IMG/VR virus record: IMGVR_UViG_2541047761_000008
Location: 1 to 7,626 of that record
Reading direction: 5' to 3' (one strand)
DNA length: 7,626 nt
Source of the DNA: a virus
Lineage: Duplodnaviria; Heunggongvirae; Uroviricota; Caudoviricetes
Position 1 is the first letter of the stretch. Every line of letters starts with the position of its first letter. The translations under genes were made by a program, and so were the position numbers. Positions 514 through 7,626 of the stretch are shown piece after piece. The notes beneath the pieces are model-generated. The model did not search any database. It saw only the letters and a list, made by a program, of their open reading frames with translations, and was not told where the DNA came from.

Positions 514-524
514 TCAATATTTAT

Positions 525-547
525 AACCTGCTTCGGCAGGTTTTTTT
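525..547 (+). terminator. Rho-independent terminator downstream of the repressor gene
   Basis: Stem AACCTGC (525-531) / GCAGGTT (536-542) with a TTCG tetraloop, running into a T7 tract (541-547), 12 nt after the repressor stop codon. Confidence 0.6.
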
Positions 548-551
548 ATAC

Positions 552-580
552 TTGACAATGTACCCTTGAGATACATAATG
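552..580 (+). promoter_or_regulatory. Sigma70-type promoter (pL-like) driving the downstream early operon
   Basis: Perfect -35 TTGACA (552-557), 16-bp spacer, -10 CATAAT (574-579); the upstream T-tract could act as a UP-like element. Predicted start around 586-588. Confidence 0.5.
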
Positions 581-585
581 TATCT
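569..585. promoter_or_regulatory. 17-bp palindromic operator-like site overlapping the -10 element
   Basis: AGATACAT-A-ATGTATCT: perfect 8-1-8 inverted repeat (569-585) covering the -10 hexamer. A possible extra half-site ATGTAC lies at 558-563. Size and placement resemble lambdoid OL operators. Confidence 0.45.
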
Positions 586-1199
586 AAAAGAAACATGCCA
601 CAGGCAAGATTAAACAAAATTTGGTTGTAACACGGCGTATGGCACATGCGTCGTTAGCGGTCTGGGGACGTTAAAGGGGACAATCCACTCCTTGCTCGGG
701 CAAACAAACCAGATAGCCGGAATGTGCAAGTCAATGAGGATGCTGATAAGACGCCTAACCAGCGTGGCGATTCGGTTTGACGCCTGGGAAGAGACCAGGG
801 TGCAACGATGAGGGCATTTATGGAACCGCGACAAAGTGTGGTGCCGTAACTGGCTAAGTGCTCTCAGCGTTGTGGTGAATGCGCAGGCTGATGCGCGAAA
901 GACATTGCAGCTATTGCGGAAAAGAGCTGTTCGGCGGGGCAATTAAACGCCCGTGAGAGTCTGAAATAACCGCAAGCCGGAGATCAGCACCGGTCACCAC
1001 AACAGCCACTGCTTTGGCGGTACCAGTTTGTACACTTGCTTCCGGCTGGTACCGCTCTTTTTACAAAACAGAGAAGAGCATCACCGGACGACGGGCTCAT
1101 AACCCAATCCATCCGGGCGGCTGTCACCGCAGGTGTTCTTCTCTGTTTTGTGGAGAAACCAACCGACCTTGCAGGGTCGGTATGATGAGGAGCAGCAAA

Positions 1200-1562
1200 A
1201 TGGCTAGCGTACGCAGTACTGATGTGCAGGTATTTATCGTAGAACTGGACGGCGGCGTATTTGAAACCAAACTCGGCGCAGTTCTCAGTGAAGTCGCTTC
1301 CGGTGTGATGAACACGAAAAACAAAGGTAAAGTCTCGGTCAATCTGGACATCGAACCGTTTGATGAGAACCGTGTGAAAATCAAACACAAACTCTCATAT
1401 GTTCGCCCGACTAACCGCGGGAAAATTTCCGAAGAAGACACCACCGAAACGCCGATGTATGTCAATCGAGGTGGTCGCCTGACTATTCTGCAGGAAGACC
1501 AGGGACAATTACTGACTCTTGCCGGTGAACCTGACGGAAAACTCCGCGCAGCAGGTCATTAA
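1200..1562 (+). CDS. yfdP: YfdP-like prophage protein (120 aa), function unknown
   Basis: ATG at 1200 is preceded by a strong SD GAGGAG (1187-1192, 7-nt spacing). The track ORF from 1014 adds a Cys/Arg-rich, non-protein-like N-terminal extension, so it is rejected. Length 120 aa and position directly upstream of yfdQ match the KplE1/CPS-53 yfdP gene as recalled. Confidence 0.7.
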   Translation: MASVRSTDVQVFIVELDGGVFETKLGAVLSEVASGVMNTKNKGKVSVNLDIEPFDENRVKIKHKLSYVRPTNRGKISEEDTTETPMYVNRGGRLTILQEDQGQLLTLAGEPDGKLRAAGH

Positions 1563-3469: not shown

Positions 3470-3669
3470 GCGTGATAAAAACTCATACAGGAATTGTTAT
3501 CACCCGAGACGGTCCGCAGGTAAAAAAACTGCACCAGACAAAGCGGATGTGGGTCGTCGGAAAAAACGAGTTTTACCACAAAGAAACCGGACGCCGCCAC
3601 TTTGCAGAAAATACTCGCCGCCGACTGCTGATCGATACCATCAAGCCTATCGAGGTGAAGCATGTTTAA
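3466..3669 (+). CDS. Hypothetical small protein (67 aa), basic
   Basis: ATG at 3466 overlaps the yfdS stop (ATGA coupling). Same strand and coupled to flanking genes. No family recognised. Confidence 0.55.
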   Translation: MSVIKTHTGIVITRDGPQVKKLHQTKRMWVVGKNEFYHKETGRRHFAENTRRRLLIDTIKPIEVKHV

Positions 3670-3901
3670 ACAGAACGAAAAATCTATCGCTCAAATTGCT
3701 GAGTATATCCCGCGTGCGTGCCGGGGTATGCAGTTGCAGGAAGCCAAAGCACGCCTGGAGAAAAAAATTGCGCTCTATATCGATGACGGCTGTGATGCTG
3801 CCGTTCTTAACGCGGCGTTCGCGCCAGCTCTTAACAGTCATACGCGAAAGTCTTTTTTTTCGTGCATCGCAGCGCAGATCCGTAAAGGAGGCAACCAGTG
3901 A
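3662..3901 (+). CDS. Hypothetical small protein (79 aa)
   Basis: ATG at 3662 with SD GAGGTG 6 nt upstream, overlapping the end of the previous ORF by 8 nt. Contains a T8 homopolymer (3853-3860) in frame. No family recognised. Confidence 0.6.
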   Translation: MFKQNEKSIAQIAEYIPRACRGMQLQEAKARLEKKIALYIDDGCDAAVLNAAFAPALNSHTRKSFFSCIAAQIRKGGNQ

Positions 3902-4497
3902 GCAACATTAACTATCAGGTACTGCGTGAAAAGGCAGAGAAAGCAACTAAAGGAAGCTACATCGTAGGGCATACATCTGTTAACCAACACGGCAATTTAA
4001 CAGGAGTTTTTGTTTGTCAAAAATGGAAAGGAGAACCCGGTGGCGTAATTGCAGAATGTCACGTTAACTGCCTGGTTGAAACAGATGCTCAGGCTTATGC
4101 AAACGCTGAATTCATAGCAGAGGCTAACCCGGCTACCGTGCTGGCACTGCTGGATGAACAGGAAAGAAACCAGCAATACATCAAACGCCGCGACCAGGAG
4201 AACGAGGATATTGCGCTAACGGTAGGGAAGCTGCGCGTTGAGCTTGAGGAGACAAAATCAAAACTCAACGAGCAGCGCGAGTATTACGAGGGAGTTATCT
4301 CTGATGGGTGCAAGCGTATTGCTGAACTGGAAGCGCGGGAAGTTCAATTACCGACTCGCTACGACCTTCGATATGGACACCCCATAAATGCAGATGAGCG
4401 ACAAGTCATGATACCTAAAGAAAATGGCAGTTGGCTTTACCTGATTGACCTAGAACACGCATTACGCGTCGCTGACATTCGCATCAAAGGAGAGTGA
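3898..4497 (+). CDS. Ead/Ea22-like family protein (199 aa)
   Basis: GTG start at 3898 with a perfect SD AGGAGG (3886-3891), overlapping the previous stop (GTGA). Motifs MSNINYQVLREKAEKATKG and ANPATVLALLDE resemble recalled Ead/Ea22-like prophage proteins. The central segment is heptad/charge-rich (LRVELEETKSKLNEQREYYE), a likely coiled coil. Confidence 0.85.
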   Translation: MSNINYQVLREKAEKATKGSYIVGHTSVNQHGNLTGVFVCQKWKGEPGGVIAECHVNCLVETDAQAYANAEFIAEANPATVLALLDEQERNQQYIKRRDQENEDIALTVGKLRVELEETKSKLNEQREYYEGVISDGCKRIAELEAREVQLPTRYDLRYGHPINADERQVMIPKENGSWLYLIDLEHALRVADIRIKGE

Positions 4498-4498
4498 T

Positions 4499-4763
4499 AT
4501 GGCAACTTTGACAAAAAAAGAACAAGCATGGTTGAGCGAATTACAGGACGTTCTTGATCGCTGCCCATCACCGAAAAAAAATTGGTTTTTACACCATTGG
4601 CGATAAAAGCATTTACCTGTATGACCTGCGCCGCATGGATGAAATCATGGAGGCTCTTGATAATCGTTCGTCAATGGATTGGTGTGTTGCTGTTCATGAT
4701 ATGAATGCCGGATTTGATGAAAAGATTTTATTCCCCTCATCAGTTGAAAGTACAGCAGGATAA
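4499..4763 (+). CDS. Hypothetical small protein, apparently frameshifted in an A8 tract (two frames, 4499-4606 and 4554-4763; about 87 aa if A7)
   Basis: ATG at 4499 with SD AAGGAGAG and a 1-nt gap after the Ead stop opens a frame that stops at 4604-4606. The downstream frame to 4763 has no ATG before the tract, only a TTG at 4554. The two frames join across A8 (4574-4581) if one A is removed. Confidence 0.5.
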
Positions 4764-4773
4764 GGACTAACAC

Positions 4774-5535
4774 ATGACCACTATTACCAAAGAGCGACTG
4801 CTGACAATCAGGCAGTGGCGCGAAACATACGGACCTGGTAGCAACGTTGTACTGCCAGCAGAAGAAGCGGAAGAACTGGCACGAATTGCTCTGGCATCGC
4901 TGGAAGCAGAGCCGATAGGTTTCCGTTGCAGGCGCAATGATAACCTTGGTGATTGGAGTTACGTATATCATCGAGAGCCAGATGATTTTGAGCGCAAACA
5001 TTTAGTGATAGAGGGCATTTACGCCGCCCCTCCAGCACCGGTAGTGCCTGAAGAAGCAACTCCGGAAAACGTAGAAATGCTCTCTGGCTATGTTTCAACG
5101 TACAAATTAACCGATAGCGAGCGCGATATTGCTGCCGAAATATGGAACGCCTGCCGCGCCGCCATGCTTCAGTCCGGAAACTTTCGGGAAAACAAGAATT
5201 CGTCAACCAATAATTTTCGGGAAATCGCGGAAACGTCAACCAACTATCCGGCAATTCCTAGTGAGGTGTTGTCCGCAATCCTGAAGGTTGCCAGGATTCG
5301 TGCCGATTTCGATGATTTTGACGGTGACAGGCGAGGTATCGGTGATTGTCTGGATGAGGCTGAGCAAGAGCTTATCGTTACCATTAACAAATATGCCAGT
5401 CAGTTGGCAGCAGAACCTATAGCGCCTAATGACGTTCGAGAGCAGACAGCCATTCCACAAGTTCCGGTAACTCCGGATGGTTGGATAAGCTGTAGTGAGC
5501 GAATGCCGGACGACAGGCAGGAGGTGAATCAATGA
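4774..5535 (+). CDS. Hypothetical prophage protein (253 aa) ending in the start of a DUF551-like motif; internal 11-residue tandem repeat
   Basis: ATG at 4774 with an AAGGA-type SD. The C-terminal WISCSERMPDDRQEV parallels YfdS residues IPVSAELPPANESVLLF but stops where the DUF551 body should continue. Contains the tandem repeat NFRENKNSSTN / NFREIAETSTN. Confidence 0.8.
   Translation: MTTITKERLLTIRQWRETYGPGSNVVLPAEEAEELARIALASLEAEPIGFRCRRNDNLGDWSYVYHREPDDFERKHLVIEGIYAAPPAPVVPEEATPENVEMLSGYVSTYKLTDSERDIAAEIWNACRAAMLQSGNFRENKNSSTNNFREIAETSTNYPAIPSEVLSAILKVARIRADFDDFDGDRRGIGDCLDEAEQELIVTINKYASQLAAEPIAPNDVREQTAIPQVPVTPDGWISCSERMPDDRQEVNQ
5179..5243 (+). repeat. Imperfect 33-bp tandem direct repeat (2 copies), in frame within the 253-aa CDS
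   Basis: Copy 1 AACTTTCGGGAAAACAAGAATTCGTCAACCAA (5179-5210) and copy 2 TAATTTTCGGGAAATCGCGGAAACGTCAACCAA (5211-5243), about 75% identical. They encode the protein-level repeat NFRE...STN twice. Confidence 0.5.
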
Positions 5536-6312: not shown

Positions 6313-7626
6313 ATGGATAAAGTCAAATATCCAACAGGCGTCGAAAACCACGGCGGCACATTACGCATCTGGTTTAATTTTAAAGGTAAACGTGTCAGGG
6401 AAAATCTTGGTGTCCCTGACACTGCCAAGAACAGGAAGATCGCCGGGGAACTGCGGACATCAGTATGTTTTGCCATCCGCACAGGAAGCTTTGATTATGC
6501 TGCACAGTTCCCTGACTCCCCCAACCTTCAGGCTTTTGGGGTAAGTAAAAAAGAAATTACGGTGAAGGAACTTGAAGAAAAGTGGCTGGATCTGAAACGA
6601 ATGGAAATCTCTGCAAATGCATTCAATCGCTATGAATCCGTTGCAAGAACGATGGTTCCGAAAATTGGAGGCAGCAGACTGGTGTCATCGGTAACTAAAG
6701 AGGAATTGCTGTATATCAGGAAAGATTTGCTGACCGGGTATCAGCATTCAACGAAAAACAAAGCAGCAGCAAAAGGACGGAGCGTCGTTACTGTAAATTA
6801 TTACATGACGACAATCGCTGGAATGTTTCAGTTTGCTGCAGATCACGGTTACTTAGAAGCAAATCCCTTCCAGGGAATTAAGCCTCTTAAAAGAGCCAGG
6901 GCAGAGCCAGATCCGCTAACTCGTGACGAATTTATTCGCCTGATAGATGCTTGCCGACATCAGCAGACGAAAAACCTGTGGTCATTGGCTGTGTACACAG
7001 GAATGCGTCACGGTGAACTGGTCTCCCTGGCCTGGGAAGATATCGATCTGAAAGCAGGAACTATTACTATCAGGCGCAATTATACGAAACTCGGTGAGTT
7101 CACTCTACCTAAAACTGAAGCAAGTACAAACAGGGTTGTGCATCTTATCCAGCCCGCTATCAGTGTCCTGAAAAATCAGGCTGAAATGACAAGACTGGGT
7201 AAGCAGCACCACATCAAGGTTCAACTACGTGAATATGGGCGTTCAGTGAATCATGAATGTACTTTCGTATTTAACCCCCAGGAGGTTAGAAAAAGCAAAC
7301 AGGTCGGTTTTATCTACAAGGTAGATTCTATTGGCGACTCATGGGAAACAGCCATTAAGCGTGCGGGCATCAGGCACCGGAAAGCATACCAGTCACGACA
7401 CACTTATGCGTGCTGGTCATTATCTGCCGGAGCAAACCCAAGCTTCATTGCCAGCCAGATGGGCCATGCAAGTGCCCAGATGGTGTTCAATGTATACGGA
7501 GCATGGATGACTGACAGTAATGCAGAACAGATCGCAATGCTGAATCAGAAGCTGGCAGATTATGTCCCAATGATGTCCCATGGTCACCAAAGTGACACAA
7601 GAGACTTATTAAAATCAGTAGGTTAG
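6313..7626 (+). CDS. int: Site-specific tyrosine recombinase / phage integrase with N-terminal arm-binding domain (DUF3596 type), 437 aa
   Basis: ATG at 6313 with SD GGAGGT (6303-6308). N-terminus YPTGVENHGGTLRIWFNFKGKRVRENLG resembles e14/Sf6-type integrases. Catalytic region has GMRHGELVSLAWEDIDL, HRKAYQSRHTYACW and MGHASAQMVFNVYGAW (R, H-x-x-R and Tyr nucleophile). Stop TAG at 7624-7626. Confidence 0.95.
   Translation: MDKVKYPTGVENHGGTLRIWFNFKGKRVRENLGVPDTAKNRKIAGELRTSVCFAIRTGSFDYAAQFPDSPNLQAFGVSKKEITVKELEEKWLDLKRMEISANAFNRYESVARTMVPKIGGSRLVSSVTKEELLYIRKDLLTGYQHSTKNKAAAKGRSVVTVNYYMTTIAGMFQFAADHGYLEANPFQGIKPLKRARAEPDPLTRDEFIRLIDACRHQQTKNLWSLAVYTGMRHGELVSLAWEDIDLKAGTITIRRNYTKLGEFTLPKTEASTNRVVHLIQPAISVLKNQAEMTRLGKQHHIKVQLREYGRSVNHECTFVFNPQEVRKSKQVGFIYKVDSIGDSWETAIKRAGIRHRKAYQSRHTYACWSLSAGANPSFIASQMGHASAQMVFNVYGAWMTDSNAEQIAMLNQKLADYVPMMSHGHQSDTRDLLKSVG

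What the first reader, a model, noticed from the sequence alone, without database searches (positions are those of the whole stretch)
4499..4763. Small gene split across two frames at an A8 homopolymer: frameshift, pseudogene or slippage site
A well-initiated ORF (ATG 4499, SD AAGGAGAG, coupled to the Ead stop) terminates at 4606 after 35 codons, while the next frame stays open to 4763 but lacks an ATG start. Removing one A from the A8 run (4574-4581) joins them into a single ~87-aa protein (MATLTKKEQAWLSELQDVLDRCPSPKK-IGFYTIGDKSIYLYDL...). This could be a homopolymer sequencing error, an inactivating +1 insertion, or slippage-based expression control.
Basis: seen in the sequence. Interest (0 to 1): 0.55.

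Follow-up and report, generated by a model that had tools for sequence, protein, structure and literature searches.

The report
Frameshifted small prophage gene (extra A)
A small, conserved prophage gene of unknown function is broken in this E. coli strain by one extra A in a run of seven A's; this is an ordinary, occasionally recurring knockout mutation and not a programmed frameshifting device.

Summary
An A8 run at 4574-4581 splits one gene into a 35-codon ORF (4499-4606) and a +1-frame remainder open to 4763. Removing one A restores an 87-aa protein that matches phrog_1714 end to end and is nucleotide-identical to the intact A7 allele (WP_000224220.1) in many E. coli prophages.

A7 with a single ORF is overwhelmingly the common state:
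- No A8 allele in 5,426 complete E. coli genomes.
- 0 of 120 matches in IMG/VR contigs.
- 1 of 76 metagenome contigs.

The A8 allele is probably real rather than an assembly error. It recurs, in the same prophage context and 100% identical, in three independent sequencing runs, and at 99.7% in a fourth. It also arose on at least two, probably three or more, other allele backgrounds, so the tract is a slippage hot spot.

Nothing supports programmed recoding. The run is not conserved in distant homologues (AAG AAA, GAG AAA). No stimulatory signal or RNA structure is present. Published reporters show no deletion-type rescue by E. coli RNA polymerase on poly(A) runs up to A8.

The intact gene is under strong purifying selection (dN/dS about 0.05). 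Its confident predicted fold has no solved relative, so its function stays unknown.

Verdict: an ordinary homopolymer frameshift pseudogene, of low interest.

The parts
4499..4763 (+). The whole frameshifted gene, a phrog_1714 / WP_000224220.1 homologue. It is 265 nt here and 264 nt when intact.
   Evidence: After removing one A it is 100% identical to the intact gene in L001, L002 and L004-L010. It matches phrog_1714 over 87/87 positions, E = 1e-50.
4487..4494 (+). Shine-Dalgarno AAGGAGAG serving the ATG at 4499. The upstream Ead stop TGA 4495-4497 abuts the start, so the two genes are probably translationally coupled.
   Evidence: Read directly from the sequence.
4499..4606 (+). ORF1: 27 native N-terminal codons (M1-K27), then 8 out-of-frame codons (NWFLHHWR) and a TAA stop.
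   Evidence: This 35-aa product was called as a gene only once in the large collection.
4574..4581 (+). The A8 homopolymer, site of the +1 insertion. It is A7 in the intact CCG-allele, encoding K26-K27 and the first base of I28 within the conserved motif RCPSPKKIGFYTIGD.
   Evidence: Motif conservation is from alignment A1.
4554..4763 (+). Mechanical ORF2 (TTG start, 69 aa). Native residues I28-G87 are encoded from 4581 onward in the +1 frame. There is no ATG and no convincing SD.
   Evidence: The exact 69-aa product was seen on 51 contigs (66 blocks) of other assemblies.

Best explanation
This is a genuine +1 insertion in a homopolymer (A7 to A8, by strand slippage during DNA replication). 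It sits inside a small conserved gene of the early-left operon of a lambdoid prophage, between the ead/Ea22-like gene and a DUF551-related gene. The window is E. coli draft assembly GCA_000457715.1, scaffold KE699926.1, and the prophage lies next to the DUF72 and yecN (MAPEG) genes. The insertion falls in the most conserved motif of the 87-aa protein (RCPSPKK|IGFYTIGD). Translation from the well-placed ATG therefore ends after 35 codons, and the C-terminal 60 codons are left without a usable start, so the allele is a null or pseudogene. The tract is a mutational hot spot: the same +1 event has occurred independently on several allele backgrounds, but it stays rare. Shown here: the indel, its rarity, its recurrence, and the selection acting on the intact gene. 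Inferred: loss of function, and replication slippage as the cause. At most trace amounts of full-length protein would be expected from non-programmed polymerase or ribosome slippage.
For: (1) The repaired gene is 100% nucleotide-identical to the annotated intact 87-aa gene in 9 directly fetched loci and 26 loci overall.
(2) Intact is the norm. A 76-nt query around the run hits 961 records in 947 of 5,426 complete E. coli genomes; none is 100% identical, and the 30 listed best hits all span 75 nt, i.e. A7. An A8-specific 45-mer finds nothing. Pattern scans that allow any run length give 119/120 in-frame in IMG/VR and 75/76 in metagenomes. Whole-gene integrity is 111/112 and 70/72.
(3) The allele is real, not an error. 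Logan assemblies of SRR6111937, SRR18944103 and SRR8730119 are 100% identical to the window over 1.5-2.2 kb, including A8 and the same Ead199/253-aa neighbours; SRR21752625 is 99.7% identical. The window differs from its closest complete-genome relative by only 2 indels in 6.7 kb.
(4) The event recurs. A8 is found on the L025-type allele (12 SNPs away, different gene neighbours), on L022 (14 SNPs), and on the L032/P0136 'IAVHH' type. The exact A7 parent alleles of the window type and the L025 type exist in 26 and 13 loci.
(5) The intact gene is functional: 61 distinct intact nucleotide alleles, median dN/dS 0.054; 87-aa homologues across Enterobacterales with invariant C22, P23, G29, Y41 and R44; AlphaFold2 model with pLDDT 92.
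(6) The gene caller made no call here in the source assembly (L011).
Against: Raw reads for GCA_000457715.1 could not be inspected. The supporting Logan and ENA contigs are short (all under 10 kb) and carry no metadata, so some may be re-sequencing of related strains, and several metagenome contigs have only 2-4x coverage. No high-quality complete genome carries the allele, which is also what would be expected if some A8 calls were artefacts. Loss of function is inferred, not measured.
Confidence: 0.8

Rival explanations
1. Sequencing or assembly error: the strain really has A7 and an intact gene, and the extra A is a homopolymer miscall in the draft assembly.
For: It is a single-base difference in a homopolymer within an otherwise identical gene. 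There is no A8 in any of 5,426 complete genomes. Some A8 contigs elsewhere have very low coverage, e.g. NODE_2229 at 2.9x. Other odd run-length variants that look like errors exist in the databases, such as P0017 and L027.
Against: The identical A8 allele, embedded in the same prophage mosaic (Ead199 + this gene + the 253-aa gene), turns up in three to four independent SRA runs. That mosaic was never seen with A7 among the loci fetched. The window has no other gene-breaking indel against its closest relative over 6.7 kb, so the assembly is not generally error-prone at homopolymers.
Confidence: 0.13
2. Slippage-based expression: the A8 state is used, and full-length protein is made at a controlled level by transcriptional slippage (A8 read as A7) or by +1 ribosomal frameshifting on AAA-AAA-A; or the tract works as a reversible phase-variation switch.
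For: A +1 slip of the P-site tRNA-Lys on the run, or a 1-nt deletion in the transcript, would regenerate exactly the native sequence (read from the sequence). The +1 event has recurred on several backgrounds. Productive slippage on 8 A's has been inferred for some IS elements in other bacteria (PMC1088944).
Against: The split state is rare, about 0.5% or less, and is not conserved. Distant homologues break the run with synonymous or near-synonymous codons (AAG AAA, AAG AAG, GAA AAA, GAG AAA), so the amino acids are selected and the run is not. The A-site codon after the run is the ordinary AAU; there is no SD-like element upstream and no stop or rare codon. The downstream RNA folds no better than shuffled sequence (z = -0.54). 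With E. coli RNA polymerase, no deletion-type rescue was detected on poly(A) runs up to A8 (PMC6260861 section 19). Selection against A/T runs typically starts at about 9 nt (PMC1088944).
Confidence: 0.05
3. Two genuine separate small genes: a 35-aa peptide and a 69-aa protein started at TTG 4554.
For: Gene callers did call the 69-aa ORF in other assemblies.
Against: TTG 4554 has no convincing SD. The two pieces are collinear halves of one conserved single-domain protein whose predicted first helix and first strand lie on opposite sides of the break. Homologues are single 87-88-aa ORFs.
Confidence: 0.02

Closest known systems
phrog_1714 / RefSeq WP_000224220.1 ('hypothetical protein', 87 aa) of lambdoid and P22-like prophages, Stx phages and phage-plasmids of Enterobacterales
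   Same: After removal of one A, the sequence is identical to WP_000224220.1. It occupies the same position, after an ead/Ea22-like gene and before a DUF551-type gene.
   Different: Here the gene carries a +1 frameshift at codons 26-28. The family has no known function, no Pfam, NCBIfam or PADLOC match, and no solved structural relative.
Ordinary homopolymer frameshift pseudogenes in prophages, e.g. the T9 'frameshifted' neighbour gene annotated in E. coli 10034292-3 (L228)
   Same: A single-base length change in an A/T run of 7-9 breaks a small early-operon gene while everything around it stays intact.
   Different: None of substance. This instance is simply in a different gene.
Programmed transcriptional slippage sites (Thermus dnaX A9, Shigella mxiE T9, IS-element A8/A9 runs)
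   Same: An A-rich homopolymer sits at the junction of two overlapping frames, and slippage would fuse them (PMC1088944).
   Different: In those systems the split arrangement and the run are conserved among homologues and the run is usually 9 or longer. Here the split is a rare derived state, the run is not conserved, and rescue needs a deletion-type slip that E. coli RNA polymerase was not seen to make on poly(A) runs up to A8.
Programmed +1 ribosomal frameshifting (prfB / RF2 type)
   Same: The required shift is +1, and re-pairing of the P-site tRNA in the new frame would be perfect.
   Different: There is no in-frame stop or hungry codon at the A site and no upstream SD-like stimulator, and the frameshift configuration is not conserved.

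Membership tests
phrog_1714 / WP_000224220.1 family | End-to-end profile match of an ~87-aa protein | tested here: met
   The repaired protein matches phrog_1714 over 1-87 of 87 positions, E = 1e-50. It is identical to cluster member P0121, seen on at least 1000 contigs.
phrog_1714 / WP_000224220.1 family | Conserved core motif RCPSPxKIGFYTIGD and C-terminal FPSxVESTAG | tested here: met
In the window as it stands, the first motif is split by the frameshift.
phrog_1714 / WP_000224220.1 family | A single uninterrupted ORF | tested here: not met
   The window has A8 and the ORF is broken at codon 28. It is therefore a frameshifted (pseudogene) allele of the family.
Programmed transcriptional slippage site | The split-ORF arrangement and the slippery run are conserved among homologues | tested here: not met
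   194 of 196 sampled tracts have the in-frame run length; one is +1 and one is -1. The run is interrupted in Raoultella, Klebsiella, Edwardsiella, Leclercia and Pectobacterium homologues.
Programmed transcriptional slippage site | A run long enough for efficient slippage by the host RNA polymerase in the required direction | not testable with these tools
   Literature only. No deletion-type rescue was seen on poly(A) runs up to A8 with E. coli RNAP (PMC6260861), and the usual threshold is about 9 (PMC1088944). Neither was measured for this sequence.
Programmed +1 ribosomal frameshift (prfB-like) | A slow or stop codon in the A site plus an upstream SD-like stimulator | tested here: not met
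   The A-site codon is AAU. The upstream sequence CCCAUCACCG has no SD-like element. There is no notable downstream structure.
Phase-variable contingency locus (homopolymer switch) | Both ON and OFF tract lengths are common in the population, and the tract is maintained against synonymous interruption | tested here: not met
   The OFF (A8) state is found in 0 of 5,426 complete genomes and in about 0.5% of sampled contigs. The tract is interrupted in distant homologues. Recurrence on several backgrounds shows mutability only.

The most novel reading that the evidence does not exclude
The A7 tract in this widespread prophage early gene may act as a low-rate, reversible ON/OFF switch. Independent A7-to-A8 events on several allele backgrounds would then reflect selection for silencing a costly or defence-triggering 87-aa protein in some hosts, possibly with trace rescue by slippage.
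Probability: 0.05. Interest if true: 0.4.

Novelty: already known. Interest (0 to 1): 0.1.

Why it matters
It matters little beyond annotation. The locus should be annotated as a frameshifted pseudogene of the WP_000224220.1 / phrog_1714 family, not as two ORFs or a recoding site. The minor points of interest are two. First, the A7 tract is a recurrent slippage hot spot. Second, the intact 87-aa protein is very widespread, under strong purifying selection and confidently foldable, yet it has no known fold relative or function, which makes it a reasonable target for functional study of prophage early-operon 'moron' or accessory genes.

Tried and rejected

**RNA-based explanations.** No Rfam family matches anywhere in the window. 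There is no stable structure downstream of the run. Promoter and terminator scans around the gene are at background level.

**Independent start for ORF2.** There is only TTG 4554, without an SD, so this was rejected.

**Shigella sonnei origin.** I considered that the window might come from Shigella sonnei because of P0023, but that variant has a replaced N-terminus and is a different lesion.

**Gaps.** The CCA-allele with A9, which would be the equivalent frameshift on the other allele, was not specifically searched for in complete genomes.

Full report
**1. The observation**

- An ATG at 4499 is preceded by AAGGAGAG (4487-4494) and abuts the TGA stop (4495-4497) of the upstream Ead/Ea22-like gene (3898-4497; Pfam Ead_Ea22, E = 1e-40).
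- This frame stops at TAA 4604-4606 after 35 codons.
- The +1 frame stays open to TAA 4761-4763. It has no ATG, and its first possible start is TTG 4554.
- The frames change at a run of eight A's at 4574-4581, the only A8 in the window.
- Deleting one A yields a 264-nt ORF encoding an 87-aa protein.

**2. It is one gene**

The repaired protein matches phrog_1714 over all 87 positions (E = 1e-50). The repaired DNA is 100% identical over 264 nt to a gene annotated as an intact 87-aa hypothetical protein (WP_000224220.1) in E. coli chromosomes and phage-plasmids. Homologues of 87-88 aa occur across Enterobacterales, including Salmonella, Klebsiella, Enterobacter, Edwardsiella, Tatumella and Pectobacterium. 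The most conserved segment is RCPSPKKIGFYTIGD, and the frameshift falls inside it, between K27 and I28.

**3. Source and setting**

The window is identical over 5,853 overlapping bases to E. coli draft assembly GCA_000457715.1, scaffold KE699926.1 (L011). The gene caller there left the interval between Ead and the next gene empty.

The region is the early-left arm of a lambdoid prophage. The genes run in this order:
- the C-terminal part of a LexA/CI-family repressor
- YfdP, YfdQ and YfdR
- several small genes
- Ead
- this gene
- a 253-aa gene
- a DUF4222 gene
- excisionase
- integrase (6313-7626)

DUF72 and yecN follow immediately outside the window.

**4. How common each state is**

| Data set | Result |
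|---|---|
| 5,426 complete E. coli genomes, 76-nt query centred on the run | 961 records in 947 genomes match; none at 100%; the 30 listed best hits are all 75/76 and span 75 nt (A7) |
| Same genomes, 45-mer that can only seed on the A8 allele | no match |
| IMG/VR contigs, pattern allowing any tract length | 116 CCG+A7, 3 CCA+A7 (a natural in-frame A8), 1 with one A fewer |
| Metagenome contigs, same pattern | 73 CCG+A7, 2 CCA+A7, 1 CCG+A8 (a 2.9x-coverage contig) |
| Whole-gene integrity in those two samples | 111/112 and 70/72 intact |

The single-ORF A7 state is therefore the rule.

**5. Real mutation or error?**

The exact ORF2 product led to contigs from independent data sets. Three Logan assemblies (SRR6111937, SRR18944103, SRR8730119) are 100% identical to the window over 1.5-2.2 kb, and a fourth (SRR21752625) is 99.7% identical. 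All four carry A8 and the same neighbouring genes, the 199-aa Ead and the 253-aa protein. I did not find this particular mosaic with A7.

Against its closest complete-genome relative (97.5% identity over 6.7 kb), the window has only two indels. One is this A8. The other is a T8 (window, intact) against a T9 in the relative, where the gene is annotated 'frameshifted'. The assembly is therefore not riddled with homopolymer errors.

I conclude the A8 is most probably a heritable allele of one prophage lineage. Without the raw reads, an artefact keeps a probability of roughly 10-15%.

**6. Recurrence**

A8 also occurs on other nucleotide backgrounds:
- an allele 12 SNPs away, with different neighbouring genes (L025, L026, L029, L031; human-gut metagenomes)
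- one 14 SNPs away (L022)
- 'IAVHH'-type variants (L032, P0136, P0146, P0147)

The exact A7 parents of the window-type and L025-type alleles exist in 26 and 13 fetched loci. The SNPs lie on both sides of the tract. Independent +1 events are therefore more parsimonious than transfer of the tract by recombination.

Other lesions at the two A-runs are also seen: A6 at the first run (L027, L059), and an in-frame deletion between the two runs (P0142). The tract is a slippage hot spot, as expected for A7/A8 runs.

**7. Not a programmed device**

- The split state is rare and derived (section 4).
- The run is a by-product of the Lys-Lys-Ile codons. Distant homologues encode the same residues with AAG AAA ATC, AAG AAG ATC, GAA AAA ATC or GAG AAA ATT.
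- Restoring the frame needs either a +1 ribosomal shift or a 1-nt deletion in the transcript.
- For the ribosomal route there is no stop or rare codon in the A site (it is AAU) and no SD-like stimulator upstream. The downstream RNA folds no better than shuffled sequence (z = -0.54).
- For the transcriptional route, out-of-frame GFP reporters with E. coli RNA polymerase gave no detectable deletion-type rescue on the poly(A) runs examined (up to A8), and no detectable activity at all below A8 (PMC6260861, section 19).
- Genome-wide avoidance of A/T runs typically begins at about 9 nt (PMC1088944).
- Any full-length product from this allele should therefore be trace-level noise.

**8. The intact gene**

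Sixty-one distinct intact nucleotide alleles were recovered. For alleles at least 10 nt apart from the window's, the median is 12 nucleotide differences but only 2 amino-acid differences, with dN/dS about 0.05. The intact protein is clearly under purifying selection.

AlphaFold2 with a 66-sequence alignment gives a confident model (pLDDT 92, pTM 0.74) with the topology helix-strand-strand-helix-helix-strand. No significant match was found by any of these:
- Foldseek against PDB
- a profile search of PDB sequences
- Pfam, NCBIfam and PADLOC

BFVD returns only unnamed phage proteins. The function remains unknown. The break separates helix 1 from the rest of the fold, so neither fragment should fold on its own (inference).

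**9. Consequence and verdict**

The most likely state of this locus is a null allele. A 35-residue peptide (27 native and 8 foreign residues) is made from the strong start. That leaves 167 untranslated nucleotides before the next gene's ATG at 4774, which has its own SD. This gap could cause mild polarity, although N-type antitermination in such operons would blunt it (inference from general lambda biology, not tested).

This is an ordinary homopolymer frameshift pseudogene of a known, uncharacterised prophage gene family. Interest is low.

Noticed in passing
window 3853-3860 (T8) within the 79-aa ORF 3662-3901: This is a second homopolymer hot spot. The run is T8 and the ORF is intact in the window. 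In the closest complete-genome relative (L228, E. coli 10034292-3) it is T9 and the gene is annotated 'frameshifted'.
   Followed up: partly
window 4774-5535: The 253-aa protein matches Pfam DUF551 only with its last 16 residues (profile positions 1-16 of 68) and then stops, so the DUF551 domain is truncated. The same 253-aa allele is nevertheless very common, being listed in 1,468 blocks of the collection.
   Followed up: partly
window 4513-4519 (A7, codons T5-K6-K7-E8 of the same gene): A second A7 run sits 55 nt upstream in the same gene and is also unstable. L027 and L059 have one A fewer there, and P0142 looks like an in-frame deletion between the two A-runs (MATLTKKKKIGFYT...).
   Followed up: partly
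P0023 (Shigella sonnei, 832 contigs): In Shigella sonnei the same gene has a replaced N-terminus (MVVSAIASTPHPSPKKIGF...). This is a different, lineage-wide disruption of the gene, and its cause was not examined.
   Followed up: no
window 514-1200: The stretch between the repressor C-terminus (175-513) and YfdP (about 1200-1562) has no convincing ORF on either strand. Close relatives only begin to align at about 863. This is presumably the pL/operator/nut region or a mosaic junction, and it has no Rfam hit.
   Followed up: no
L229, L230, L237 (genome contigs): Short contigs carrying this E. coli prophage gene at 95-97% identity are binned into MAGs labelled Segatella copri and Collinsella sp. 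This is almost certainly binning contamination.
   Followed up: no
L003, L018, L021 (divergent allele): An intact allele uses CCA for Pro25 and so carries a natural in-frame A8 run (CCA AAA AAA ATT). Tract length alone therefore does not indicate a frameshift in this family.
   Followed up: yes
window 6313-7626 and beyond (L011, L228): The 437-aa integrase gene ends at the window edge, and its 3' end overlaps the start of the flanking DUF72 gene, which is followed by yecN (MAPEG). This marks the prophage attachment site.
   Followed up: no
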